64,000 nucleotides of DNA, from the NCBI GenBank assembly GCA_016794005.1, contig JAEUKY010000207.1, positions 17,630-81,629 of the forward strand, in the 5' to 3' direction. The translations under genes were made by a program, and so were the position numbers. Below, in pieces: positions 35,186 through 46,034 of this stretch (position 1 is the first letter of the stretch; each line of letters starts with the position of its first letter). The notes beneath the pieces were generated by a model. The model was not told where the DNA came from. It did not search any database and was given only the letters and a program-made list of their open reading frames with translations. The stretch is from Rhodospirillales bacterium (GTDB lineage: Bacteria; Pseudomonadota; Alphaproteobacteria; CACIAM-22H2).

Positions 35186-36025
35186 TTAGAGCGTCGCCTC
35201 GATCGACTGGCGCAGCTCGGCGGTCACCTCGGGCAGCACGCCGAACCAGGCCTTGAAGGCCGGCCGCGCCTGATGCAGCAGCATGCCGAGCCCGTCGACC
35301 GTCGGGTTGCCCCGCTTGCGGGCCGCCGCCAGCAGCGGCGTTTCGAGTGGCGTATAGACGATGTCGGAAACGAGGGCCGTCTTCGGCAGCACGTCGAGCG
35401 ACAGGTCCAGTGCGGGCTGGCCGACCATGCCCTGACTGGTCGTGTTGACGACCATCGCCGCACCGTCGAGCGCCCGGTTCCGGTCGTTCCATGCGATCGT
35501 CGTTATCGATCCGCCGATCTGCGCCACGAGTGCGGCCGCACGCTCCGGCGACCGGTTCACGAGGCGGATTTCGCGAGCACCCCGGTCCTGCAAGCCGACG
35601 ATGACGGCGCGCGCACCCCCGCCCGCTCCGACCACGACGACGGGACCGGCGTCCGCGCGCCAGCCCGGGACGCGATCGACCACGTTTTCGATATAGCCCC
35701 AGCCGTCGTTGTTGAAGCCGTTGAGCGAGCCGTCCGGCCCGACGACGATGCAGTTGGCGGCCCCGATGCGCTTGGCCAGCGGATCTAGATTGTCGACGAT
35801 CTTCAGCGCTTCGACCTTGTGCGGGATCGTCAGGTTGCAGCCCGAGAAACCGAGTGCGGGCAACGCGCGCAGGGCGGCCCCCAGCCCTTCGATCTTGATA
35901 CCGAGCGGCACGTAGACGCCGGCGAGCCCGTGCTTCTGGAGCCAGTAGTTATGGAGCCTGGGCGAGCGCGAATGCATCACCGGCCAGCCCATCACGCCGG
36001 CCATCAAGAACCGTTCCTGCGCCAT
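35186..36025 (-). CDS. aroE: Shikimate/quinate dehydrogenase family protein (AroE-like)
   Basis: C-terminal 279 codons of ORF 35186..36361, ATG at 36025 (MAQERFLMAGVMGWPVMHSRSPRLHNYW). Family motifs SRSPxLHN, CNLTIPHK, NNDGWG, GAGGGARA. Confidence 0.85.
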   Translation of the reverse strand: MAQERFLMAGVMGWPVMHSRSPRLHNYWLQKHGLAGVYVPLGIKIEGLGAALRALPALGFSGCNLTIPHKVEALKIVDNLDPLAKRIGAANCIVVGPDGSLNGFNNDGWGYIENVVDRVPGWRADAGPVVVVGAGGGARAVIVGLQDRGAREIRLVNRSPERAAALVAQIGGSITTIAWNDRNRALDGAAMVVNTTSQGMVGQPALDLSLDVLPKTALVSDIVYTPLETPLLAAARKRGNPTVDGLGMLLHQARPAFKAWFGVLPEVTAELRQSIEATL

Positions 36026-36047
36026 TTCCGTCGTTTCCCTTTTCAGA

Positions 36048-36473
36048 TCACTTGCCGCGGGCCGTGATGGCCGCCACACCGGCCGTCGCCAGCGCGATAT
36101 CCTCGGCTTCCGGCAGGCCGCTGACGCCGACGGCACCGACGAACTGGCCGTCGCGCTCGACCGGAATGCCTCCGCCCCACCCGACATAGCGCGCGTCGCC
36201 GTAATAGGAAATGTCGAAGCCCTGCACCGGATCGCGGGACTTCTGGCCGACCAGCGCGCTGGGCCGGCGGAGGCGCACGGACGTATAGGCCTTGTTCGTC
36301 GCGACCGCGACCGAGCTGAGGGCCGCCCCCGAATAGCGCAGGACCGCAAGCGTTTCACCATGGGAGTCGACGACCGCGATCACGGCTGCCTTGCCGCCCG
36401 CATCCAGTTCCTTGCGGATCGCGTCGATCGCCGCCGTCGCGTCCAGATGGTCGAGTGTCAGTTCGTTACGCAT
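36048..36473 (-). CDS. GlcG/HbpS-like (DUF336) putative haem-binding protein
   Basis: ORF 36048..36584 trimmed to the ATG at 36473 (MRNELTLDHLDATAAIDAI...). DUF336 pattern (AVVDSHGETLAV, NKAYTSV, WGGGIPV, VGAVGVSG). Overlaps the upstream ATPase gene by 8 nt. Confidence 0.8.
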   Translation of the reverse strand: MRNELTLDHLDATAAIDAIRKELDAGGKAAVIAVVDSHGETLAVLRYSGAALSSVAVATNKAYTSVRLRRPSALVGQKSRDPVQGFDISYYGDARYVGWGGGIPVERDGQFVGAVGVSGLPEAEDIALATAGVAAITARGK

Positions 36474-37227
36474 TCCCGCCCGTGCTCCCGTGCTGGCTGG
36501 TTCCGCCGAGGAACAGCTCGCCGACACGGGGGTCGACGAGCAGCTTCGACGCCTCGTCGTACATCCGGGTCTGTCCCTGCTCAAGCACTAGTCCGCGATC
36601 GGATATCTGCAGTGCGCTGCGCGCATTCTGCTCGATCAGCAGGATCGTCGTGCCGCGGTCGCGAAGACCGAGCAGGATGTCGAAGGTCTCGCGCACCATC
36701 AGCGGCGACAGGCCGATGGACGGCTCGTCGATCAGCAGCAGCTTGGGATCCAGCAGCATGCTGCGCGCGATCTCCAGCAGCTTCTGCTGGCCGCCGCTGA
36801 GCGTGGAGGCCTGCGCCTTCGCCTTGCCGCGCAGCACCGGGAAACGGTCGAGTGCCGCCTCGATACGCGCGGGAATGTCGATGGCGGGCGGGGCCGCGAT
36901 CCCGCCAAGCTCGAGATTATGGAGCACGCTCAGCTCCGGAAAGATGTTGCGTCCCTGCGGCACGTAGCTGATGCCGGCGGCAAGAAGCTCGCGCGGTGCG
37001 AGATTGGTGATGTCCGCCCCGTCGAACGCGATCTTGCCGCTGCGCACCTTCAGCAAGCCGAACACGGTCTTGAAGACGGTCGACTTCCCCGCTCCGTTCG
37101 GGCCGATCACGGTGGTGATCTTAGCGCGCTCGATCGCAAAGGTCGTGCCGTGCAGGATCGTCATCGGGCCGTAGCCGGCAACGACGGAGTCCAGCGACAG
37201 GATCGGAGCTCCGGTCTCAGGGCCCAA
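36466..37227 (-). CDS. HAAT-family ABC transporter ATP-binding protein, LivF-like (second system)
   Basis: Part of ORF 36466..37494. There is no in-frame ATG or GTG near the conserved N-terminus (PILSLDSVVAGYGP). The best candidate start is TTG at 37227, overlapping the livG-like gene by 11 nt. VIGPNGAGKST, LSGGQQKLLEIARSM, LLIDEPSIGLSP. Confidence 0.8.
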   Translation of the reverse strand: MGPETGAPILSLDSVVAGYGPMTILHGTTFAIERAKITTVIGPNGAGKSTVFKTVFGLLKVRSGKIAFDGADITNLAPRELLAAGISYVPQGRNIFPELSVLHNLELGGIAAPPAIDIPARIEAALDRFPVLRGKAKAQASTLSGGQQKLLEIARSMLLDPKLLLIDEPSIGLSPLMVRETFDILLGLRDRGTTILLIEQNARSALQISDRGLVLEQGQTRMYDEASKLLVDPRVGELFLGGTSQHGSTGGNA

Positions 37228-37960
37228 GATAGGCCTCGACGACTTTCGGGTTGTTGCGGATGCTGGCGGGATCGCCCTCGGCGATGATCCGCCCTTCGGC
37301 GAGCACGAGCACGCGCGTGCACAGCGACATGACGAAATCCATGTTGTGCTCGATGACCACGAACGTCGCGCGCATCTCGCGGTTGATCGCGCGCAGGCGC
37401 TCGCGCAGGTCGGCCAGCATCGTGAGATTGACCCCGCCCGCCGGCTCGTCGAGCAGCACCAGACGCGGGCCGCCCATGAAGGCCATCGCGGCATCCAGCA
37501 GCTTCTGCTGGCCGTAGCTGAGCCGGCCTGCCCGCTCGCCGGCCACGTGCGACAGGCGGAAGAACTCGATCATCCGGTCGGCCGCGGCACCCAAGCCCGC
37601 ATCCGGCGGCCCGAAAAGACGCGACAGCATCGAGCCGCGATGCTCCTGCCCCGCCGCGATCAGATTGTCCTTCACGGTCAGCTCCGGGAAGACCTGCAGC
37701 AGCTGGAACGTGCGGCTCACACCCAGCGCGTTCAGGTCGCAGGGGCGCATCCCGGTCGTGACCTTGCCGTCGACGCGTATCTCGCCCGACGTGGGCTGGA
37801 GCTGGCCCAGCACGCAGTTGAACAGCGTCGACTTGCCCGACCCGTTCGGGCCGATGATGCCGACGATCTCGCCCTCGTCGACCGAGAACGAGACGCCGTC
37901 GACCGCGACGATGCCGCCGAAGGACTTGTGGATGTCCTTGACCTCCAGGACCGGCGCCAT
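37217..37960 (-). CDS. HAAT-family ABC transporter ATP-binding protein, LivG-like (second system)
   Basis: C-terminal 247 codons of ORF 37217..38824, ATG at 37960 (MAPVLEVKDIHKSFGG). IIGPNGSGKST, LSYGQQKLLDAAMAF, LVLLDEPAGGVN. Confidence 0.9.
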   Translation of the reverse strand: MAPVLEVKDIHKSFGGIVAVDGVSFSVDEGEIVGIIGPNGSGKSTLFNCVLGQLQPTSGEIRVDGKVTTGMRPCDLNALGVSRTFQLLQVFPELTVKDNLIAAGQEHRGSMLSRLFGPPDAGLGAAADRMIEFFRLSHVAGERAGRLSYGQQKLLDAAMAFMGGPRLVLLDEPAGGVNLTMLADLRERLRAINREMRATFVVIEHNMDFVMSLCTRVLVLAEGRIIAEGDPASIRNNPKVVEAYLGP

Positions 37961-38931
37961 CAGTGCGTCCCCGTCGTGGCGGTGGTGCGTCGGCGGCGCA
38001 GGGCGGCGGCGATCCGTTCGGCCATGCCGATCAGCCCCTGCGGGCAGAACGTCATCAGGATCATCACAGCCGCAGCATAGAGAAGGAGGTAGTAGCCTTG
38101 CGTGAAGCGCAGGAACTCCGGCAGCAGGACCGCGACCATGGCGCCGACGAGCGGCCCCAGCAGGTAGCCGGACCCGCCGACGATGACCATCAGCAGCAGG
38201 CTCAGCGAATAGCCGAGCGAGAAGGAGCCCGGTTCGAGGAACTGCACCAGCGGCGCAAACAGCCCGCCGGCGAACCCGCCGATCGACGAACCGATTGCGA
38301 AGGCCAGCAGCGTGTATCGGCGCGTATCGACGCCCAGCGACATCGCGCGGACGGGATTTTCGCGCAAGACCATGAAAGCGCGCCCCCACGGCGAACGGAT
38401 CATCCACCACATGGCGCCGAGGAAGATCGCGAGCATCCCGAGACAGAAATAGTAATAGTCCGCCGACTTCGCGAACGAGACCCCGAACAGCACGGGCCGT
38501 TGGATGCCGGAAATTCCGTAGACGCCGTTGGTCAGCCACTGCTCGTTGCGCAGCAGCAGGTAGACGAGCGTCGTGAAGGCGAGCGTGACGAACGCGAGGT
38601 AATGGTGCTGCACGCGCAGGGCCGGATAACCGAGCAGCCAGCCAACGCCGAAGCAGATCGCCCCTGCCGCGACGAATGCGGCCGGGAACGGCACGCCCTG
38701 CTGCATCAGGATCGCCGTCGCATAGGCGCCGATCCCGACGAAAGCGCCCTGCGCCATCGATATCTGGCCGGCATAGCCGAGCGTGAGGTTGAGCCCCATC
38801 GCCGCGATGGCGGTAACGGCCCACAGGCTGACGAGATAGAGCGACGACGGCCGAAGGAACTGCGGTCCGAGCGCGAGCGCCAGAACGACGGCCGCCGCGA
38901 TGGCGAGCGGGACAAGGCGCGCGCGTTCCAT
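37960..38931 (-). CDS. HAAT-family ABC transporter permease, LivM-like (second system)
   Basis: 323-aa ORF. LivM-type core (GLNLTLGYAGQISMAQGAFVGIGAY, NGVYGISGI). Confidence 0.9.
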   Translation of the reverse strand: MERARLVPLAIAAAVVLALALGPQFLRPSSLYLVSLWAVTAIAAMGLNLTLGYAGQISMAQGAFVGIGAYATAILMQQGVPFPAAFVAAGAICFGVGWLLGYPALRVQHHYLAFVTLAFTTLVYLLLRNEQWLTNGVYGISGIQRPVLFGVSFAKSADYYYFCLGMLAIFLGAMWWMIRSPWGRAFMVLRENPVRAMSLGVDTRRYTLLAFAIGSSIGGFAGGLFAPLVQFLEPGSFSLGYSLSLLLMVIVGGSGYLLGPLVGAMVAVLLPEFLRFTQGYYLLLYAAAVMILMTFCPQGLIGMAERIAAALRRRRTTATTGTH

Positions 38932-39809
38932 CAGACCGACCGCTCCTCGACCCGCCCGAGCAGACCCTGCGGCCGGAAAAGGATCACGACGACGAGCACG
39001 ATCAGCGGAACTGCCGCGCGGTACTGCGCCGAAACATAGGAGGCCGCGAGATTGTCGAGCACACCGAGGATCAGGCCGCCGAGGACCGCGCCCCGCACGT
39101 GGTTGAATCCGCCGACGATGGCCGCGACGAACGCCGCAAGGCCCAGCGTCTCTCCGTTCGTGAACTTGGCGAGATAGATCGGCGAAATCAGGAACGACGC
39201 GAGCGCCGTCAGAAGTCCGTTGATCAGGAACGTGTAGAGGATCATCCGGTCGACATCGACGCCGAGGATGCGCGCCACGGCGCGGTTCTGCGCGGTTGCC
39301 TGCATCGCGCGCCCGGTCAGCGTAGACGAAAGGAACCAGTTGAGGAGTGCGACGGCGCCGAGCGCCACAAAGAAGATCGCGATGCTCTGCGTCGAGACGA
39401 CGGCGCCGAGGAACTCGATATCCGTTCCTTCGACGATGGGCGGAAACTGCTGAGCCTGCGAGCTGTAGAAGTCCTTGACCGACTCCTTCATCAGGATCGC
39501 GAGCGCCACGGTGGAGATGACGAGCGGAAGCACGCCGTGCCTCAGCATCGGTTCGACGACCAGCCCCTTGAACGCCGCCCCGAGAAGCAGGGCCGACACG
39601 ACGAGGCCGATGGCGATCGACGGAAGGTAGCCGAGCCCCCAGACCTTCATCGCGACGAGCACGAAGAAGGCCGGCACCATGACGAACTCGCCCTGCGCGA
39701 AGTTGATCGTCTGCGACGTCTGCCAGAGCAGCGCGAAGCCCACGGCGACGAGGGCGTAGATCGCCCCCGTCGCCAGGCCGGACACGACGAGCTGGATGAA
39801 GCCGGACAT
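38931..39809 (-). CDS. HAAT-family ABC transporter permease, LivH-like (second system)
   Basis: 292-aa ORF (MSGFIQLVVSGLATGAIYALVAVGFALLWQTSQTINFAQGEF...). Confidence 0.9.
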   Translation of the reverse strand: MSGFIQLVVSGLATGAIYALVAVGFALLWQTSQTINFAQGEFVMVPAFFVLVAMKVWGLGYLPSIAIGLVVSALLLGAAFKGLVVEPMLRHGVLPLVISTVALAILMKESVKDFYSSQAQQFPPIVEGTDIEFLGAVVSTQSIAIFFVALGAVALLNWFLSSTLTGRAMQATAQNRAVARILGVDVDRMILYTFLINGLLTALASFLISPIYLAKFTNGETLGLAAFVAAIVGGFNHVRGAVLGGLILGVLDNLAASYVSAQYRAAVPLIVLVVVILFRPQGLLGRVEERSV

Positions 39810-39840
39810 CGTATCTCCGTCGCGGTACCGCTGACCGGCC

Positions 39841-40980
39841 TTAGAGGCCGGCCTTCGGCAGTATCTCGACGATCTTCTGCTTTCCGGCGACGACCTCGCC
39901 GAGAAAGCTCTGACGGTCGATGTCGCCGTTCTTGTCCCACGTGGCTTCCATCAGGATGCCCGGTTCGTCCGACGGCTTGATCGTCATGCCGTGGAGGGCC
40001 GCGGCGAACGCCTTGCTGTCGAACTTCCCGATCTTCTCGGTCACGTGCTTGATGACGTAGACGGCCGTGTAGCCCTTGATGCCGTTGTGGTCGTTGGCGT
40101 AGCCGAAGCGCTTCTTGAACTTCTCGCCGAACTCCTGGAGTGCGGGAACGGGCGCGTCTGCCGTCAGGCCCACATGGCCCTTCACGCCGTTCGCGGCCTC
40201 GCCGGCCAGTTCGATGACCTTCTGGCCCAGAAGCGTCGTCTCGCCGATCAGCGGGGCGCGGATGCCCTGCTTGCGCGCCTCGCGCAGGAAGCGAGCGCTT
40301 TCTTCCTCGTTCGTATAGACGAAGATCGCGTCCGCATTGGCGTTCTTGACCTTCACCACGTCCGAAGCGAAGTCGACCTGGCCGGATTCCGTCGACACGT
40401 CGGCGACGACAGGAATGTTGCGCTTGCGCATCTCGGCGGTGAACGCGTCGCGCCCGCCCTTGCCGAAGTCGTTGTTGACCCACACGACCGCGACGGACTT
40501 CGCCTTGACGCCGTCGCGCATGTAGTTGGCGATCTTCGGCATGCTGACCTGCTGGCCGAACGCGGTGCGGAAGATATAGGGATTGCCCCGCTGCGTGATC
40601 GCGGCCGCCTCGCCGCCCATGATCTGCGGGATCTCGGCCTGCTTGGTCAGTTCCATGCTGGGCAGCACCGAGCCGGAGAAGACCGGGCCGAGCACGACAT
40701 AGGCCTTGTTGTCGATCATGCGCTGGATCTGGGCGCGCGCGATGCTCGCCTCGCTCTGCGTGTCGACATGCGGGACGTCGAGCTTGCGCCCGAGAATACC
40801 GCCCTTGGCGTTGATCTCCTCGACCGCGAGGATGATCCCGTCGCGCCAGTTCGTGCCGGAAACGGCACCGGCACCCGAGAGTTCGGCGAGATTGGGAATG
40901 TAGATCGTGGACTGCGCGCCCGCCGCGACGGGCGCCATCGCCATGGCGGCGACGAAGAACGATTTCATCAGGTACTTCAT
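39841..40980 (-). CDS. HAAT-family ABC transporter substrate-binding protein (second system; candidate aromatic/alicyclic acid binder)
   Basis: 379-aa ORF with a Sec signal (MKYLMKSFFVAAMAMAPVAAGAQS) and type-I PBP pattern. The ligand is inferred only from the neighbouring gallate genes. Confidence 0.85.
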   Translation of the reverse strand: MKYLMKSFFVAAMAMAPVAAGAQSTIYIPNLAELSGAGAVSGTNWRDGIILAVEEINAKGGILGRKLDVPHVDTQSEASIARAQIQRMIDNKAYVVLGPVFSGSVLPSMELTKQAEIPQIMGGEAAAITQRGNPYIFRTAFGQQVSMPKIANYMRDGVKAKSVAVVWVNNDFGKGGRDAFTAEMRKRNIPVVADVSTESGQVDFASDVVKVKNANADAIFVYTNEEESARFLREARKQGIRAPLIGETTLLGQKVIELAGEAANGVKGHVGLTADAPVPALQEFGEKFKKRFGYANDHNGIKGYTAVYVIKHVTEKIGKFDSKAFAAALHGMTIKPSDEPGILMEATWDKNGDIDRQSFLGEVVAGKQKIVEILPKAGL

Positions 40981-41157
40981 GTTTCGCTCCCTTTTTCCCG
41001 GACTTTGCCGGATTCCGCATTTGTAGCCTTACCCGTGGCGCGAAGGTATCGCGCATCCCGGAAAGTAACGTCAAATACCAAGTTCTTCGCTTCCTCTAAC
41101 ATCGGGTTACTATGCGACGGCCCTTCGTTGCGCCATCGGTCCCATGTCTGGGGTTGC

Positions 41158-41191
41158 TGAATCAAATTATTTGTTTGCCGGTTTTGGTGAA
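41158..41191 (-). promoter_or_regulatory. Bipartite motif copy 1: TTCACCAA-N16-ATTTGATTCA (read on the minus strand, toward the HAAT operon)
   Basis: The plus strand reads TGAATCAAAT (41158-41167), 16 nt, TTGGTGAA (41184-41191). It ends 27 nt upstream of the lysR ATG. Both boxes and the spacing are identical to copy 2. Confidence 0.6.
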
Positions 41192-41217
41192 TTCGGTGCA
41201 TCAATCGGCGCACTCCC

Positions 41218-42114
41218 ATGCGGATCGATTTTCTCGGCCTCCAGACCTTCCTCAGCATCGCCGAACGCGGCAGCTTCCAGCGCGCGGCGGCACATCTCAA
41301 CCTGTCGCAGACGGCGCTCAGCCACCGGATGCGCAAGTTCGAGGCCGATCTTGGCGTCAAGCTGCTGACCCGCACGACGCGCCAGGTGACTCTGTCGCCC
41401 GCCGGGCTCGAACTGCTGCCCAAGGCGCGCCGCATCCTCGACGAGATCGAGACGTCGTTCGAATCCCTGCGCCAGAGCGGCAGCCACCGGCAGGAGCGCA
41501 TCGCGATCGGCTGCCTGCCGACGATCGCGCACCACTACCTGCCTCGCCTGCTGCAGCAGTTCTCCGCCCGCTATCCCGACATGACGGTCAAGATCCACGA
41601 CAACTCGGCGACCGAGATCGCCGATCTCGTCCAGTCGGGTGCGGCCGAATTCGGGATCACCATCGTCTCGGCCAACCGCGTGGATCTCGACATAAGGCCG
41701 CTGCTGAAGGAGCCGTTCGTGCTGGTCTGCCCGGCGACGCACGCCTTCGCGCGGCAGAAGGCGGTCAACTGGTCGGAGCTAGGGGGCACCCCGCTCGTGC
41801 GGATCAGCCCGCAGGCCGGTAACCGCGCGCTGATCGACGACGCGCTGGGCAGCCGGCGCGACGCGCTGCTCTGGCGCTACGAGGTGCAGCACGTCGCGAC
41901 CGCCGTCAGCATGGTGATCGCCGGGCTCGGCCTGACGGTGGTGCCGCGCCTTGCCATCGACGTGGCCGGAACGCCGGGCGTGGCTGCCATCCCGCTGCAC
42001 AATCCCGGCGTGGCGCGCACGCTGGGGATCGTCCAGAAGCGCGGCACGGCGCTTTCTGCACCTGCCGAGTTCCTCGCCGGCCTTATCTCGACCCGGCTTC
42101 GATCCGAGAAATGA
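41218..42114 (+). CDS. LysR-family transcriptional regulator (GalR-like by context)
   Basis: 298-aa ORF. N-terminal wHTH (LQTFLSIAERGSFQRAAAHLNLSQTALSHRMRKFE) plus a LysR substrate-binding domain. Confidence 0.9.
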   Translation: MRIDFLGLQTFLSIAERGSFQRAAAHLNLSQTALSHRMRKFEADLGVKLLTRTTRQVTLSPAGLELLPKARRILDEIETSFESLRQSGSHRQERIAIGCLPTIAHHYLPRLLQQFSARYPDMTVKIHDNSATEIADLVQSGAAEFGITIVSANRVDLDIRPLLKEPFVLVCPATHAFARQKAVNWSELGGTPLVRISPQAGNRALIDDALGSRRDALLWRYEVQHVATAVSMVIAGLGLTVVPRLAIDVAGTPGVAAIPLHNPGVARTLGIVQKRGTALSAPAEFLAGLISTRLRSEK

Positions 42115-42123
42115 TGCAGAGTT

Positions 42124-42157
42124 TTCACCAATAGTCCCATATCAATCATTTGATTCA
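42124..42157 (+). promoter_or_regulatory. Bipartite motif copy 2: TTCACCAA-N16-ATTTGATTCA (toward the gallate genes)
   Basis: TTCACCAA (42124-42131), 16 nt, ATTTGATTCA (42148-42157). It ends 52 nt upstream of the galD-like ATG. It contains the dyad AATCA-TT-TGATT. Confidence 0.6.
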
Positions 42158-42209
42158 TGATCGGCCGTGCCAGAGATTCCAGGCGCGGTTTCGACGGGAG
42201 GAACGACAA

Positions 42210-43301
42210 ATGCAACAGCGCGTGCGTTGCATGCTGATGCGCGGCGGCACGTCAAAGGGTGCCTATTTCCTTGCCGACGATCTGCCGCGCGACGTCGCCT
42301 CGCGCGACGCCGCCCTGCTGGCGATCTTCGGATCGCCCGACCCGCGCCAGATCGACGGCATCGGCGGCGCCAATCCGCTGACCAGCAAGGTCGCAATCGT
42401 CTCGAAATCGAAGGACACCGAAAGCGATATCGATTTCCTGTTCTGTCAGGTCTCCGTCGACCGCGCGATGGTCGATACCACGCCCAACTGCGGCAACATC
42501 CTTGCCGGTGTGGCGCCGTTCGCGATCGAGCGCGGACTGGTCGTGCCGCAAGGCACCACGACGCGCGTGCGCGTGCGTACGATCAACACCGGAACGCTCG
42601 CCGAACTCGTCGTCGAGACGCCGGACGGCAGGGTGAACTATGACGGCGATGCGCACATCGACGGCGTGCCCGGCACGTCGGCCCCCATCGCCGTCAACTT
42701 CCTCGATGCGGAAGGCTCGGTATGCGGCAGGCTGCTGCCGACCGGCAATGCCGTCGACGTCGTCTGCGGGGTCGAGGCTACGCTGATCGACAACGGGATG
42801 CCGGTCGTCGTGCTGGCGGCCGAAGCCTTGGGACGCACCGGCTACGAAAGCCGCGAAAGCCTCGATGCGGACGTGGAGCTGAAGGCGAAGCTCGAGGATA
42901 TCCGCCTCGCGGCCGGCCGGCTCATGGGCCTCGGCGACGTCAAGGACAAGGTAATTCCGAAGATGGCGCTCGTCGCCCCACCGGCAGCCGGCGGTAATGT
43001 CTGCACGCGGAGCTTCATCCCGCATGTCTGCCATGCCTCGATCGGCGTGTTCGCGGCCGTGTCGGTCGCGACCGCCTGCGTCCTGCCGAGTACGCCCGCT
43101 GCGCGCGCAACGACGATGCCCGGCGGGCGAGTGCGCACCGTCATGGTCGAGCACCCGACCGGCAATTTCGCCGTACGGCTCGAAGTCGGCGGCAGCGACG
43201 CGGCCCCCGTCGTCGAGCGCGCAGGTCTGGTGCGCACTTCCCGGGCGCTATTCGACGGCGTCGTCTTCTACAGAACAGCAGCTCAATCGACGGCTGCCTG
43301 A
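42210..43301 (+). CDS. galD: PrpF-superfamily isomerase, 4-oxalomesaconate tautomerase-like
   Basis: ORF 42150..43301 trimmed to the ATG at 42210 after GGGAGGA. PrpF-type N-terminus ([15 protein letters not shown]) and TPNCGN motif. Context with hydratase, aldolase and dioxygenase genes. Confidence 0.8.
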
Positions 43302-43312
43302 GGCAGGGAAAA

Positions 43313-44029
43313 ATGGGCAAATCCGCTCTGGTCGTTTCGGCACATCCCGGCGACTTCGTCTGGCGCGCCGCCGGCGCCATCGCCCTGCATGTCGCGAAGG
43401 GCTATCGCGTCAAGATCGTCTGCCTTGCCTATGGCGAGCGCGGCGAAAGCCAGTGGGCATGGAAGAAAGCAGACGTCTCGCTCGCCGACGTGAAGGCCCA
43501 GCGCCACGCGGAATCCGAGAAGGCCGCCGCCGTACTGGGCGCGGAGATCGAGTTCTTCGACGCCGGGGACTATCCGCTGCGCCTGACCGAGGCGATGCTC
43601 GACCGGCTCGTCGACATCTACCGCGAGGTAAAGCCGTCTTTCGTTCTGACGCATTCGATGGAGGATCCCTACAACGGCGACCATCCGGAAGCCTCGCGCT
43701 TCGCCCAGGAGGCGCGCGTCATCGCGCAAGCCGCCGGCCACAAGCCCGATCCGTCGCGCAGTTACAGCGCGCCGGCGGTGTTCCTGTTCGAGCCGCATCA
43801 GCCCGAGCAGTGCAACTACAAGCCCAACGTGATCCTCAACATCGATCCGGTGTGGGAGACCAAGCGCAAGGCCTTCGAGGTGCTCGCCGCCCAGCAGCAT
43901 CTCTGGGAATACTATACGCGCGTCGCGCTCAACCGCGGCATGCAGGGCGGGCGCAATTCCGGCAAGCCGATGACCTACGGCGAAGCCTACCAGCGCGTCT
44001 TCCCCGCCGTCGTCGAGGAACTGTCGTGA
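43313..44029 (+). CDS. galB: LmbE/PIG-L-fold protein, 4-oxalomesaconate hydratase-like
   Basis: 238-aa ORF. LmbE-like N-terminus ([17 protein letters not shown]), [13 protein letters not shown] motif. The functional call rests on GalB of Pseudomonas putida being an LmbE-fold hydratase, plus the pathway context here. Confidence 0.75.
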
Positions 44030-44724
44030 CGCCGGTCGTCGTGCGCAACGTCGCGCGCGCCGACGCCGATGCGGTGCGGGCGCTCGGCGAATGCGGCGTC
44101 TCGACCGTGCACGAAGCCTTCGGCCGGTCCGGCCTGATGAAGCCCTACATGCGCCCGGTCTGGCGGCGCGCGCGGACGACAGGAACGGCCGTGACCGTCC
44201 TCGCCCAACCCGGCGACAACTGGATGCTCCATGTCGCGGTCGAACAGTGCCGGCCGGGCGACATCCTCGTCGTCGCCGTCGCGTCCGACAACGAGGACGG
44301 CATGTTCGGCGAGTTGCTCGCCACGTCGCTGCAGGCGCGCGGCGTGCGCGGTCTCGTCATCGACGCGGGTTGCCGCGACGTCGCCGCACTCGAGGACATG
44401 GACTTCCCGGTCTGGTCGCGCGCGATCTCGGCCAAGGGCACGGTCAAGGCGAGCCTCGGCAGCGTCAACGTGCCGGTCGTCTGCGCCGGCGTCGCCGTCG
44501 CACCGGGCGACGTCGTGGTCGCCGACGACGACGGCGTCGTCGTCGTGCCCGCGAAGGACGCCGTCGACGTCGCCAGACGCGCCAAGGCGCGCGTCGCCGC
44601 CGAGGAAGCCAAGCGCCGCCAGCTCGCCGCCGGCGTGCTCGGCCTCGATCTCTACGCGATGCGCGACGGGCTCACGAAAGCCGGCCTCGTCTATGTCGAC
44701 GCGCCCGACGAACCAAAACCATAA
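44026..44724 (+). CDS. galC: RraA-fold class II aldolase, 4-carboxy-4-hydroxy-2-oxoadipate (CHA/HMG) aldolase-like
   Basis: Part of ORF 42997..44724. GTG at 44026 overlaps the upstream stop (GTGA). RraA/HMG-aldolase motifs ([40 protein letters not shown]). Confidence 0.8.
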
Positions 44725-44735
44725 GGATCCACCGC

Positions 44736-46034
44736 ATGGCCCGCATCATCGGGGCGATCGCCGCCTCGCACACGCCGACGATCGGCTTTGCCTTCGACAA
44801 GAAGAAGCAGGACGACCCGGTCTGGGCGCCGATCTTCGAATCCTTCGCGCCCGTGCGCACGTGGATCGAGGCGAAGAAGCCCGACGCGTTCGTTTTCGTT
44901 TTCAACGACCACGTGACGTCGTTCTTCTTCGACCACTATTCAGCCTTCGCGCTGGGCATCGGCGAGCGCTACGCCGTCGCCGACGAGGGCGGAGGTCCGC
45001 GCGACCTGCCGCCGGTCGACGGACACACGCGGCTTGCCCAGCATATCGGCGCGTCGCTGGTCGCCGACGAGTTCGACATGTCCTTCTTCCAGGACCGCCC
45101 GCTCGACCACGGGTGCTTCTCGCCGCTGAGCATGATGATGGAGAGCAAGCCGAAATGGCCCGTTCCCATCGTCCCACTGCAGGTCGGCGTGCTGCAATTC
45201 CCGATCCCGTCGGCGTCGCGCTGCTTCCGCCTCGGCAAGGCGCTGCGCCGCGCGATCGAAAGCTATCCCGAGGACATCTCGGTCGCGATCGTGGCGACCG
45301 GCGGCCTTTCGCATCAGGTGCACGGCGAGCGCGCGGGCTTCAACAACACTCCGTGGGACATGCGCTTCCTCGACATGATCGAGAAGGATCCCGAGACGCT
45401 GGCGCGCATGACGCATGCAGAGTACGCCACGCTCGGCGGATTCGAGGGCGCCGAGGTCATCATGTGGCTGATCATGCGCGGCGCCCTTTCCGCCCGCGTG
45501 AACCGGATCCACCAGACCTACTACCTGCCCTCGATGGCGGGCATCGCGACTGCGATCTACGAGAACGCCGGCGAGCCGCCGCCGGATGCCGAGGCCGGTC
45601 GGCACCGCGCGCATGTCGGCCACCAGCTTGCCGGCGTGGAGGCGCTATCCGGCACCTACCCCTTCACGCTGGAGCGCAGCGTGAAGGGATACCGGATCAA
45701 CAAGTTCCTTCACGCACTGATCGCACCTGCCGTCCGGGCAAGGTTCCTCGCCGATCCGGAGACCTGCTTTGCCGAAGCCGGGCTTTCCGACGAGGAGCGC
45801 GACCTGATCCGGCGGCGCGACTGGCGCGGCCTCATCCGCTACGGCGCGATCTTCTTCATGCTCGAAAAGCTGGGCGCCGTCGTCGGCGTGTCGAACCTGC
45901 ACATCTATGCGGCCATGCGCGGGCAGACGCTGGAAGAGTTCCAGAAGACGCGCAACGCGCCGGGAGCACTCTATTCGGTCGCCGGCACCGACAAGGGCAA
46001 GACCGATTGGGCCGCATCGTCCGGCCGAACCTAG
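44736..46034 (+). CDS. galA: Fused LigB-LigA type extradiol dioxygenase, gallate dioxygenase-like
   Basis: Part of ORF 44091..46034, ATG at 44736 (MARIIGAIAASHTPTIGFAFD), 432 aa. LigB-like catalytic N-domain (FNDHVTSFFF, ATGGLSHQVHG) is fused to a LigA-like C-domain (YRINKFLHAL...RDWRGLIRYGAIFFMLEKL). Confidence 0.8.
   Translation: MARIIGAIAASHTPTIGFAFDKKKQDDPVWAPIFESFAPVRTWIEAKKPDAFVFVFNDHVTSFFFDHYSAFALGIGERYAVADEGGGPRDLPPVDGHTRLAQHIGASLVADEFDMSFFQDRPLDHGCFSPLSMMMESKPKWPVPIVPLQVGVLQFPIPSASRCFRLGKALRRAIESYPEDISVAIVATGGLSHQVHGERAGFNNTPWDMRFLDMIEKDPETLARMTHAEYATLGGFEGAEVIMWLIMRGALSARVNRIHQTYYLPSMAGIATAIYENAGEPPPDAEAGRHRAHVGHQLAGVEALSGTYPFTLERSVKGYRINKFLHALIAPAVRARFLADPETCFAEAGLSDEERDLIRRRDWRGLIRYGAIFFMLEKLGAVVGVSNLHIYAAMRGQTLEEFQKTRNAPGALYSVAGTDKGKTDWAASSGRT

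What the first reader, a model, noticed from the sequence alone, without database searches (positions are those of the whole stretch)
41158..42157. Identical bipartite motif TTCACCAA-N16-ATTTGATTCA on both sides of the LysR gene, each pointing at a different operon
The 10-mer TGAATCAAAT and the 8-mer TTGGTGAA occur with exactly 16 nt between them at 41158-41191 and, in inverted orientation, at 42124-42157. Copy 1 faces the HAAT-aroE operon (and lies 27 nt upstream of lysR). Copy 2 faces the galD-like gene, ending 52 nt upstream of its ATG. Eighteen fixed positions at identical spacing are very unlikely by chance in these short spacers. The ATTTGATT part contains a T-N11-A-compatible dyad (AATCA-TT-TGATT). 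The simplest reading is a shared LysR operator/promoter module that makes transporter, aroE-like and ring-cleavage genes one regulon.
Basis: seen in the sequence. Interest (0 to 1): 0.6.

Follow-up and report, generated by a model that had tools for sequence, protein, structure and literature searches.

The report
LysR operator-promoter pair, gallate gene cluster
Two mirror-image copies of a conserved 46-base control element flank a LysR regulator gene in a Tagaea genome. They most likely let that regulator switch on a gallate-breakdown operon and an uptake operon together, which is a real and well-conserved but ordinary kind of bacterial gene switch.

Summary
The two copies are 46-nt inverted arms, 41158-41203 and 42112-42157, identical at 33 of 46 positions. 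There are no other copies in the window or in the 3.67-Mb genome.

Each arm has a T-N11-A dyad (TGCA-N5-TTCA), an 18-nt A-tract spacer, and then (C/A)ATTTGATTCA. The second box contains a -35-like TTGATT.

The same fixed-geometry module occurs in 53 sites beside LysR orthologues of 48-96% identity in Rhodospirillales and Hyphomicrobiales. Among 61 relatives, it is found in 15 of 15 genomes that carry the regulator, always beside the regulator gene. It is absent from 2 genomes that have galB but lack this LysR.

A -10-like NANNNT lies 17-18 nt after the TTG box in 21 of 44 non-redundant sites.

The right-hand operon is galD-galB-galC-galA (gallate degradation). The left-hand operon is a HAAT ABC importer followed by GlcG-like and AroE-like genes.

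Best reading, about 0.8: these are LysR RBS/ABS operators fused to two outward-facing promoters.

The motif differs from the sites published for Pseudomonas GalR and sphingomonad LigR. No binding or transcription-start data could be obtained. It is a new member of a known kind, of modest interest.

The parts
41158..41203 (-). Module copy 1, 46 nt, read on the minus strand and pointing at the HAAT/AroE-like operon. It overlaps the last 15-60 nt before lysR.
   Evidence: Inverted repeat I1. PWM score 69.6 bits, the best in the genome. Invariant columns in the alignment of 8 orthologous upstream regions fall in this block while the flanks diverge.
41188..41200 (-). T-N11-A dyad of copy 1 (TGCACCGAATTCA on the minus strand). 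Proposed recognition site (RBS), 18 nt before the lysR ATG.
   Evidence: Read directly. The same box is present in all orthologous upstream sites.
41158..41168 (-). AATTTGATTCA box of copy 1. It contains the -35-like TTGATT (41165 to 41160 on the minus strand). Proposed activation-site/-35 end.
41133..41146 (-). Conserved block (CATGGGACCGATGG on the minus strand), 14-27 nt beyond the -35-like box of copy 1. Possibly the -10/start region of the leftward promoter. It does not match NANNNT.
   Evidence: Conserved in 7 Tagaea-group orthologues, even where the divergent neighbour gene differs.
41218..42114 (+). lysR-family regulator gene (298 aa).
   Evidence: Pfam HTH_1 and LysR_substrate. No NCBIfam model reaches its cutoff; the best is PsrA at 199 bits against a cutoff of 540. 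All database relatives are unnamed LysR-family proteins.
42112..42157 (+). Module copy 2, 46 nt, pointing at galD. It starts at the lysR stop codon TGA (42112-42114).
   Evidence: Inverted repeat I1. PWM score 58.2 bits, second best in the genome. Conserved upstream of galD in 6 relatives.
42115..42127 (+). T-N11-A dyad of copy 2 (TGCAGAGTTTTCA). Proposed RBS.
42147..42157 (+). CATTTGATTCA box of copy 2, with the -35-like TTGATT at 42150-42155.
42173..42178 (+). Predicted -10 hexamer GAGATT, 17 nt after TTGATT. The predicted transcription start is near 42185, about 65 nt from the centre of the dyad.
   Evidence: GAnnnT stands at the same spacing in all 7 aligned galD upstream regions. NANNNT is enriched at spacer 17-18 across 44 sites. 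The start site is not measured.
42210..46034 (+). galD (42210-43301), galB-like PIG-L hydratase (43313-44029), galC-like RraA-type aldolase (44026-44724), and galA-like fused LigB-LigA dioxygenase (44736-46034).
   Evidence: NF033377 4-oxalomesaconate tautomerase at 522.7 bits, cutoff 440. Pfam PrpF, PIG-L, LigB and LigA. Start codons. The GalC assignment rests on synteny, size and reading frame only.
35186..40980 (-). Leftward operon: Peripla_BP_6 binding protein, two permeases, two ATPases, an HbpS/GlcG-like gene and an AroE-like dehydrogenase gene.
   Evidence: A second, 29%-identical aroE paralogue lies elsewhere in the genome.

Best explanation
Each copy is a composite operator-promoter for the LysR-type regulator encoded between them. 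A regulator tetramer is proposed to bind the T-N11-A dyad (TGCA-N5-TTCA) as its high-affinity recognition site, about 65 nt upstream of the transcription start. It would also bind the region up to and including (C/A)ATTTGATTCA as its activation site. That region lies three helical turns away and overlaps a -35-like TTGATT. With an inducer from the gallate pathway (gallate or its ring-cleavage product 4-oxalomesaconate, by analogy), the regulator would activate the rightward galD-galB-galC-galA operon. It would also activate a leftward promoter facing the HAAT importer/GlcG-like/AroE-like operon. Because the left dyad lies 18 nt before the lysR start codon, the same bound protein would repress lysR. 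What is shown: the sequence anatomy, its conservation, its exclusive genomic association with this regulator, and the promoter-like spacing. What is inferred: binding by this protein, the RBS/ABS roles, the inducer, autorepression, and the transcription start sites.
For: (1) The two copies are unique in the window and in the genome. (2) The 46-nt arms share 33 positions, including a T-N11-A dyad. (3) Fifty-three sites in more than 40 loci have an identical 32-nt distance from the dyad's first T to CATTTG. The PWM carries 52 bits, concentrated in ATGCA, TTCA, two A-tracts and CATTTGnTTCA. (4) Thirty-six of 37 loci found through LysR homologues (48-96% identity, Rhodospirillales and Hyphomicrobiales) have at least one site beside lysR, and the lysR-adjacent sites all point away from it. 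(5) In alignments the module is conserved while the flanks diverge. This holds even where the divergent neighbour is a different gene, an SBP_bac_5 gene in three relatives. (6) Among 61 relatives the pattern occurs in 15 of 15 genomes with a LysR of at least 54% identity. All but one of these matches lie beside lysR, and the reversed control pattern gives none. It occurs in 0 of 2 genomes with galB but without this LysR, and in 1 of 43 others, as a 1-mismatch hit. (7) NANNNT occurs 17-18 nt after the TTG box in 21 of 44 non-redundant sites, against 0-2 at other offsets. (8) In L035 the orthologous binding-protein gene (70% identity) and an AroE-like gene lie in the same co-directional gene run as galB-galC, downstream of the site. 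In G029 a second, unlinked site precedes another HAAT-type operon.
Against: The simple sigma-70 scan finds no consensus promoter anywhere in 40900-42300. Copy 1 has no NANNNT at the expected place. A separate conserved promoter-like element lies between copy 1 and the binding-protein start codon, so the leftward operon may be driven partly or mainly by something else. The downstream half is not a clear dyad, so the activation-site assignment is weak. Genomes with gal genes but without this LysR number only two, and relatives are not independent. The PWM and tallies were built from loci chosen through the regulator, so some circularity remains.
Confidence: 0.8

Rival explanations
1. The module is the operator of a different transcription factor encoded elsewhere, which is inherited together with the gal cluster. 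LysR would bind other DNA or nothing here.
For: No binding data exist. The co-occurrence of motif and LysR is confounded by co-inheritance of the whole cluster. Only two genomes separate galB from LysR.
Against: Nearly every site lies within about 70 nt of a lysR end or in front of the next operon of the same cluster. The T-N11-A dyad and the roughly 45-nt extent are the LysR-family signature. The neighbouring cargo genes vary (HAAT, SBP_bac_5, LigB-type, DUF1932, galD, galB), but lysR is the constant neighbour.
Confidence: 0.08
2. The conserved boxes are only core promoter elements (a -35 plus an upstream element), or belong to an alternative sigma factor, with no dedicated regulator site.
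For: The best conserved box contains TTGnTT, and a -10-like signal follows at 17-18 nt.
Against: The upstream dyad lies about 30 nt before the -35, where RNA polymerase core elements are not expected. The pattern is absent from the rest of each genome searched, and a sigma-factor promoter should recur at many loci.
Confidence: 0.07
3. The arms are terminal inverted repeats of a small mobile or formerly mobile unit carrying lysR, or a recent duplication without function.
For: Inverted arms flank a single gene. The genes flanking lysR differ between close relatives.
Against: There are only two copies per genome and no transposase. Identity is confined to specific positions (33 of 46) that match a consensus conserved across orders, while the spacers drift. 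Many loci have one site or three rather than a pair. The differences in flanking genes are explained by insertion or loss of single genes within conserved synteny.
Confidence: 0.03
4. Chance similarity of two AT-rich spacers.
For: Each half alone is not significantly over-represented.
Against: None of 100 shuffles gives even one match to the combined pattern with up to 3 mismatches. The pattern is also conserved in dozens of genomes.
Confidence: 0.01

Closest known systems
Canonical LysR-type regulator control regions with RBS (about -65, T-N11-A) and ABS (about -35), e.g. BenM/CatR, CbnR, OxyR (general knowledge of the family; summarised in PMC9942251)
   Same: It has an adjacent LysR gene and a T-N11-A dyad. 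The conserved span of about 45 nt reaches a -35-like hexamer. There is a divergent target operon, and the dyad overlaps the regulator's own leader. One regulator serves two promoters.
   Different: The consensus sequence (ATGCA-N5-TTCAy, 18 nt, CATTTGaTTCA) was not found in the papers searched. The second site lies directly after the regulator's stop codon rather than in a divergent spacer. The activation-site half is not an evident dyad.
GalR of Pseudomonas putida KT2440 / Pseudomonas sp. NGC7, the LysR activator of the galTAP and galBCD operons (PMC9942251, PMC12314914)
   Same: It is a LysR regulator embedded in a gallate cluster (galA, galB, galC, galD) and controls an uptake operon as well as the enzyme operon. 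4-Oxalomesaconate is reported there as the effector, which is a plausible analogy here.
   Different: The predicted GalR RBS ATAAANAAANNGNAT is absent from the window even with 2 mismatches. Uptake here is by a HAAT-type ABC system rather than by an MFS transporter plus porin. Orthology of the proteins was not tested, because no GalR sequence was on hand.
LigR of Sphingobium sp. SYK-6 and Novosphingobium aromaticivorans, the LysR activator of the protocatechuate 4,5-cleavage genes (PMC12710314)
   Same: It is an alphaproteobacterial LysR activator of the shared lower pathway (oxalomesaconate to pyruvate plus oxaloacetate). Its footprints lie at about -50 to -85 and overlap a T-N11-A element.
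   Different: The conserved LigR box TT-N-GC-N6-TTAT does not occur in either spacer. The cluster here is of the gallate type, with a fused LigB-LigA dioxygenase.

Membership tests
LysR-type regulator operator (RBS/ABS architecture) | A LysR-family gene (HTH_1 plus LysR_substrate domains) next to the site | tested here: met
   Pfam PF00126 at 71.5 bits and PF03466 at 149.8 bits for 41218-42114.
LysR-type regulator operator (RBS/ABS architecture) | T-N11-A motif with dyad symmetry in the recognition site | tested here: met
   TGCAGAGTTTTCA at 42115-42127 and TGCACCGAATTCA at 41200-41188. In the PWM from 53 sites, T, G, A ... T, T, C, A are the high-information positions. Some orthologues have the perfect dyad TGAATC-N-GATTCA.
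LysR-type regulator operator (RBS/ABS architecture) | Recognition site near -65 and activation site overlapping -35 of the regulated promoter | tested here: inconclusive
   The predicted -35 TTGATT and -10 GAGATT place the dyad centre about 65 nt from a predicted start for galD. NANNNT is enriched at 17-18 nt. No start site is measured, the consensus scan finds no promoter, and copy 1 lacks a clear -10.
LysR-type regulator operator (RBS/ABS architecture) | Motif co-occurs with the regulator across genomes | tested here: met
   The motif occurs in 15 of 15 genomes with the regulator, in 0 of 2 with galB only, and in 1 of 43 others. Relatives are not independent.
LysR-type regulator operator (RBS/ABS architecture) | Specific binding of the regulator protein, and effector-dependent change of footprint | not testable with these tools
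   This needs EMSA, a footprint, or DAP-seq.
Pseudomonas GalR regulon | Regulated genes are the gallate pathway genes galA, galB, galC and galD plus uptake genes | tested here: met
Pseudomonas GalR regulon | Predicted GalR recognition sequence ATAAANAAANNGNAT (PMC12314914) | tested here: not met
   No matches in the window with up to 2 mismatches.
Pseudomonas GalR regulon | Regulator orthologous to P. putida GalR | not tested
NCBIfam has no matching model above its cutoff.
Sphingomonad LigR regulon | Conserved TT-N-GC-N6-TTAT box in protected regions (PMC12710314) | tested here: not met
   None of the 6 matches with up to 1 mismatch in the window lies in 40981-41217 or 42115-42209.
Mobile-element terminal inverted repeats / intergenic repeat family | Many copies in the genome, at unrelated loci | tested here: not met
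   There are exactly two copies in the 3.67-Mb genome. The next PWM score is 23 bits, against 58 and 70 for the two copies. Each relative has 1-2 pattern matches, and all but one lie in the lysR/gal cluster.

The most novel reading that the evidence does not exclude
lysR and its outward-facing operator-promoter modules behave as a conserved regulatory cassette. Over evolutionary time the cassette has been re-wired to different cargo genes by insertion, loss and partial duplication. Cargo found beside it includes a HAAT importer, an SBP_bac_5 binding-protein gene, a LigB-type dioxygenase gene, a DUF1932 oxidoreductase gene, galD and galB. Two cases support this. The window's lineage deleted the DUF1932 gene together with one module, which left the galD module abutting the lysR stop codon. 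In G029 a module carrying a truncated DUF1932 5' end was copied in front of an unlinked transporter operon. This would be a traceable example of regulon growth by promoter capture.
Probability: 0.35. Interest if true: 0.45.

Novelty: new member of a known kind. Interest (0 to 1): 0.33.

Why it matters
It gives a precise, testable operator model for an uncharacterised LysR family. That family accompanies gallate/4-oxalomesaconate degradation genes in many Rhodospirillales and Hyphomicrobiales. Regulation of this pathway has so far been studied only in Pseudomonas (GalR) and sphingomonads (LigR), whose sites differ from this one. The model links an ABC importer and an AroE-like dehydrogenase to the pathway, so it suggests candidates for substrate uptake and for an upstream conversion step. 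It also offers a compact regulator-plus-promoter part for gallate/lignin-monomer biosensors in alphaproteobacterial hosts. It does not reveal a new regulatory principle.

Tried and rejected

(2) The generic sigma-70 and terminator scan of 40900-42300 found no promoter and nothing informative.

It is exact only in copy 2, it has an even-length centre, and no T...A pair 12 nt apart is centred on it. The conserved T-N11-A is the TGCA-N5-TTCA box.

(4) The direct-repeat similarity of 41128-41148 to 42123-42143 (71%) was considered as a third site. It is rejected as probably chance, because it is not shared by the corresponding regions of relatives.

(5) Gene conversion between the two copies is not needed.

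(6) Full-text searches for the motif string and for regulators of gallate clusters in Rhizobiales found nothing relevant.

(7) Searches for the published GalR and LigR boxes were negative.

(8) A PDB sequence search gave only generic LysR relatives (NtcB, OxyR; E about 1e-28), which does not help with specificity.

(9) The large protein search returned only unnamed LysR-family entries.

Full report
OBSERVATION. With up to three mismatches these are the only matches in the 64-kb window, and 100 dinucleotide-preserving shuffles gave none. They are also the only matches in the whole 3.67-Mb, 85%-complete genome, in which the window is C180:17630-81629. Each half alone is not unusual. The stated distances to the lysR ATG (41218) and the galD ATG (42210) are correct. 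The similarity is longer than reported. The inverted arms are 46 nt, 41158-41203 and 42112-42157, and 33 of 46 positions are identical. This adds a shared TGATGCA next to the TTCACCAA box.

GENES. The gene at 41218-42114 is a LysR-family regulator with HTH_1 and LysR_substrate domains. No curated NCBIfam model reaches its cutoff.

To the right lie four genes:
- 42210-43301: a 4-oxalomesaconate tautomerase (NF033377, 522.7 bits, cutoff 440).
- 43313-44029: a PIG-L-fold protein in the position of the GalB hydratase.
- 44026-44724: an RraA-size frame in the position of the GalC aldolase.
- 44736-46034: a fused LigB-LigA dioxygenase of the GalA type.

To the left, on the minus strand, lie a Peripla_BP_6 binding protein, two permeases, two ATPases, an HbpS/GlcG-like protein and an AroE-like dehydrogenase, spanning 35186-40980. 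A second, distant aroE paralogue elsewhere in the genome is presumably the housekeeping copy. By its closest relatives the organism is a Tagaea sp. (Rhodospirillales) metagenome-assembled genome.

ANATOMY OF THE MODULE. Read in the direction of the operon it faces, each copy has three parts:
- A 13-nt T-N11-A box with dyad character: TGCAGAGTTTTCA at 42115-42127, and TGCACCGAATTCA at 41200-41188 on the minus strand.
- An 18-nt spacer with A-runs about one helical turn apart.
- (C/A)ATTTGATTCA, which contains a -35-like TTGATT.

For copy 2, a hexamer GAGATT follows 17 nt later, at 42173-42178. This predicts a transcription start near 42185. That is about 65 nt from the dyad centre and about 25 nt before the galD start codon, which has a GGGAGGAA ribosome-binding site. 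Copy 2 begins at the lysR stop codon. Copy 1's dyad lies 18 nt before the lysR start codon.

CONSERVATION. LysR orthologues of 82-96% identity in six other genomes of the genus keep the upstream block almost unchanged while the flanks diverge. This holds even in three genomes where the immediately divergent gene is an SBP_bac_5 binding-protein gene inserted before the HAAT operon.

A scan of one genome per species found 38 loci with LysR homologues in Rhodospirillales and Hyphomicrobiales, including Aquabacter, Azorhizobium, Prosthecomicrobium, Rhabdaerophilum, Salinarimonas and Beijerinckiaceae. Almost all are linked to galD, galB, galC or LigB-type genes. A loose regular expression recovered 53 sites, all with exactly 32 nt from the first T of the dyad to CATTTG. 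The weighted matrix holds 52 bits. Its consensus is ATGcA-N5-TTCAt-nAA-N7-AAA-N5-CATTTGaTTCA.

Scanning those loci gives at least one site beside lysR in 36 of 37. Upstream sites lie on the minus strand and downstream sites on the plus strand, so they point away from lysR. Further sites stand in front of the next operon of the cluster. The matrix was built from these same loci, so this tally is partly circular. The own-genome scan is less so: the two window copies score 69.6 and 58.2 bits, and the next best position scores 23 bits and is low-complexity AT-rich DNA.

ASSOCIATION WITH THE REGULATOR. In 61 genomes (the window's own, 20 of the same genus, 16 of the same family and 24 of the same class) a 17-base degenerate pattern with up to one mismatch was found in 16. 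These 16 comprise all 15 genomes that carry a LysR of at least 54% identity, plus one 1-mismatch hit in an unrelated small genome. The reversed control pattern gave no hits. All but one of the matches in the 15 lie beside lysR or galD. The exception is a second site in G029. Two genomes have a galB homologue (55-66% identity) but not this LysR, and neither has the pattern. A genome with only a 39%-identical LysR paralogue also lacks it. Kinship makes these counts non-independent, and the decisive class (gal genes without the regulator) holds only two genomes. Even so, the result is what a dedicated operator predicts, and not what a general promoter or repeat family predicts.

PROMOTER CONTENT. 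Among 44 non-redundant sites, NANNNT occurs 17 nt after the TTGnnn hexamer in 16 and 18 nt after it in 5, against 0-2 at every other offset from 8 to 29. About 1.5 would be expected from base composition. In the seven aligned galD upstream regions the hexamer is GAnnnT every time. The second box is therefore at least partly a -35 element. The module is an operator fused to a weak promoter, as expected for an activator-dependent promoter.

Copy 1 and its Tagaea orthologues do not show NANNNT. Instead they share a conserved block, 41133-41146, at the place where a -10 would be. That promoter is therefore less certain.

WHAT THE WINDOW'S ARRANGEMENT DERIVES FROM. Most relatives have the order lysR, site A, a DUF1932/NAD_binding_2 oxidoreductase gene, site B, galD. 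The window's copy 2 matches site B. For example, the site-B sequence of L023 is almost the same over the 44 nt compared. Neither site A nor any DUF1932 homologue is found in the window's genome. The window and its 96% relative G019 have therefore lost that gene together with site A, which brought the galD module up against the lysR stop codon. The identity of the two copies therefore reflects shared constraint rather than recent copying.

DOES COPY 1 CONTROL THE IMPORTER OPERON? Three observations favour this:
- Its orientation.
- Its conservation where the 5' leader is short and has no other conserved element (L026).
- The L035 locus, where an orthologous binding-protein gene (70% identity), the permeases and an AroE-like gene follow galB-galC in the same direction, downstream of a site.
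In addition, in G029 a second, unlinked site precedes another HAAT-type operon whose binding protein is only 21% identical. A truncated DUF1932 5' end lies between that site and the operon.

One observation urges caution. In the window, 178 nt separate copy 1 from the start codon. That stretch holds a second conserved element, TTGACG-N17-CGATAC on the minus strand (41074-41046), with two GTAACGTC-like direct repeats. The element is shared with L021, L023 and L024. This suggests a proximal promoter, possibly with its own regulator.

MECHANISM. The best reading follows the standard LysR scheme, which is established knowledge of the family and is summarised in PMC9942251. In that scheme a tetramer holds the T-N11-A recognition site and a second, weaker site next to or overlapping the -35. 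The effector changes the contact with the second site and allows recruitment of RNA polymerase. Here the dyad centre and the centre of the CATTTGATTCA box are about 31 nt apart, three helical turns. A conserved A-rich patch lies about 21 nt from the dyad. This pattern is compatible with the two alternative activation sub-sites described for BenM/CatR-type regulators, but that link is inference only. Autorepression of lysR is inferred from the position of copy 1's dyad. The effector is unknown. 4-Oxalomesaconate and gallate are the candidates by analogy with Pseudomonas GalR (PMC12314914).

COMPARISON WITH KNOWN SYSTEMS. The system works like the GalR system of Pseudomonas putida and the LigR system of sphingomonads. 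Their published sites are absent from the two control regions. ATAAANAAANNGNAT for GalR has no match in the window, and none of the six TT-N-GC-N6-TTAT (LigR) matches lies in either spacer (PMC12314914, PMC12710314). According to PMC9942251, no GalR site had been characterised experimentally by 2023. The motif string itself is not found in any relevant paper. All close protein relatives are unnamed LysR-family entries. This is therefore a new operator consensus for an uncharacterised branch of a very well known regulator family.

LIMITS. Orthology to GalR and LigR was not tested. The genome is 85% complete, so further sites could lie in unassembled parts.

VERDICT. Novelty: new member of a known kind. 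Interest is modest.

Noticed in passing
window 41046-41103 (minus strand): A second conserved promoter-like element lies between module copy 1 and the binding-protein start codon. It reads TTGACG (41074-41069), 17 nt, CGATAC (41051-41046), with GTAACGTC at 41065-41072 and a CTAACATC repeat at 41096-41103. It is conserved in L021 and L024. In L023 it sits between the inserted SBP_bac_5 gene and the HAAT binding-protein gene. It may be a proximal promoter with another regulator's site.
   Followed up: partly
window 40998-41011: A small hairpin, CCGG-N6-CCGG, lies just before the ribosome-binding site of the HAAT binding-protein gene. It is kept, with sequence changes in loop and stem, in all seven Tagaea-group orthologues. 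It may be a translational or small-RNA target element, such as those known for ABC-transporter mRNAs in alphaproteobacteria.
   Followed up: no
window 42112-42114 versus L022:6913-7864: The window's lineage (and G019) lacks the DUF1932/NAD_binding_2 oxidoreductase gene and its own module (site A), which lie between lysR and galD in most relatives. No homologue is found anywhere in this genome. The enzyme's role in the pathway is unknown.
   Followed up: partly
L059:3001-3200 (G029:C22:580600-580800): A second module copy lies far from lysR. It is followed by a truncated 5' fragment of the DUF1932 gene and then by a different HAAT-type ABC operon. This looks like promoter capture by partial duplication.
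   Followed up: partly
L022:4270-5874 and the equivalent places in L023 and L025: In three close relatives an SBP_bac_5 (peptide/opine-type) binding-protein gene is inserted between the module and the HAAT operon. It has no permease genes of its own nearby, so it is an orphan binding protein placed under the LysR-facing promoter.
   Followed up: no
window 41128-41148 and 42123-42143: A 21-nt direct similarity (71%) links the conserved block left of copy 1 with the spacer of copy 2. It is not conserved in relatives and is probably chance.
   Followed up: yes
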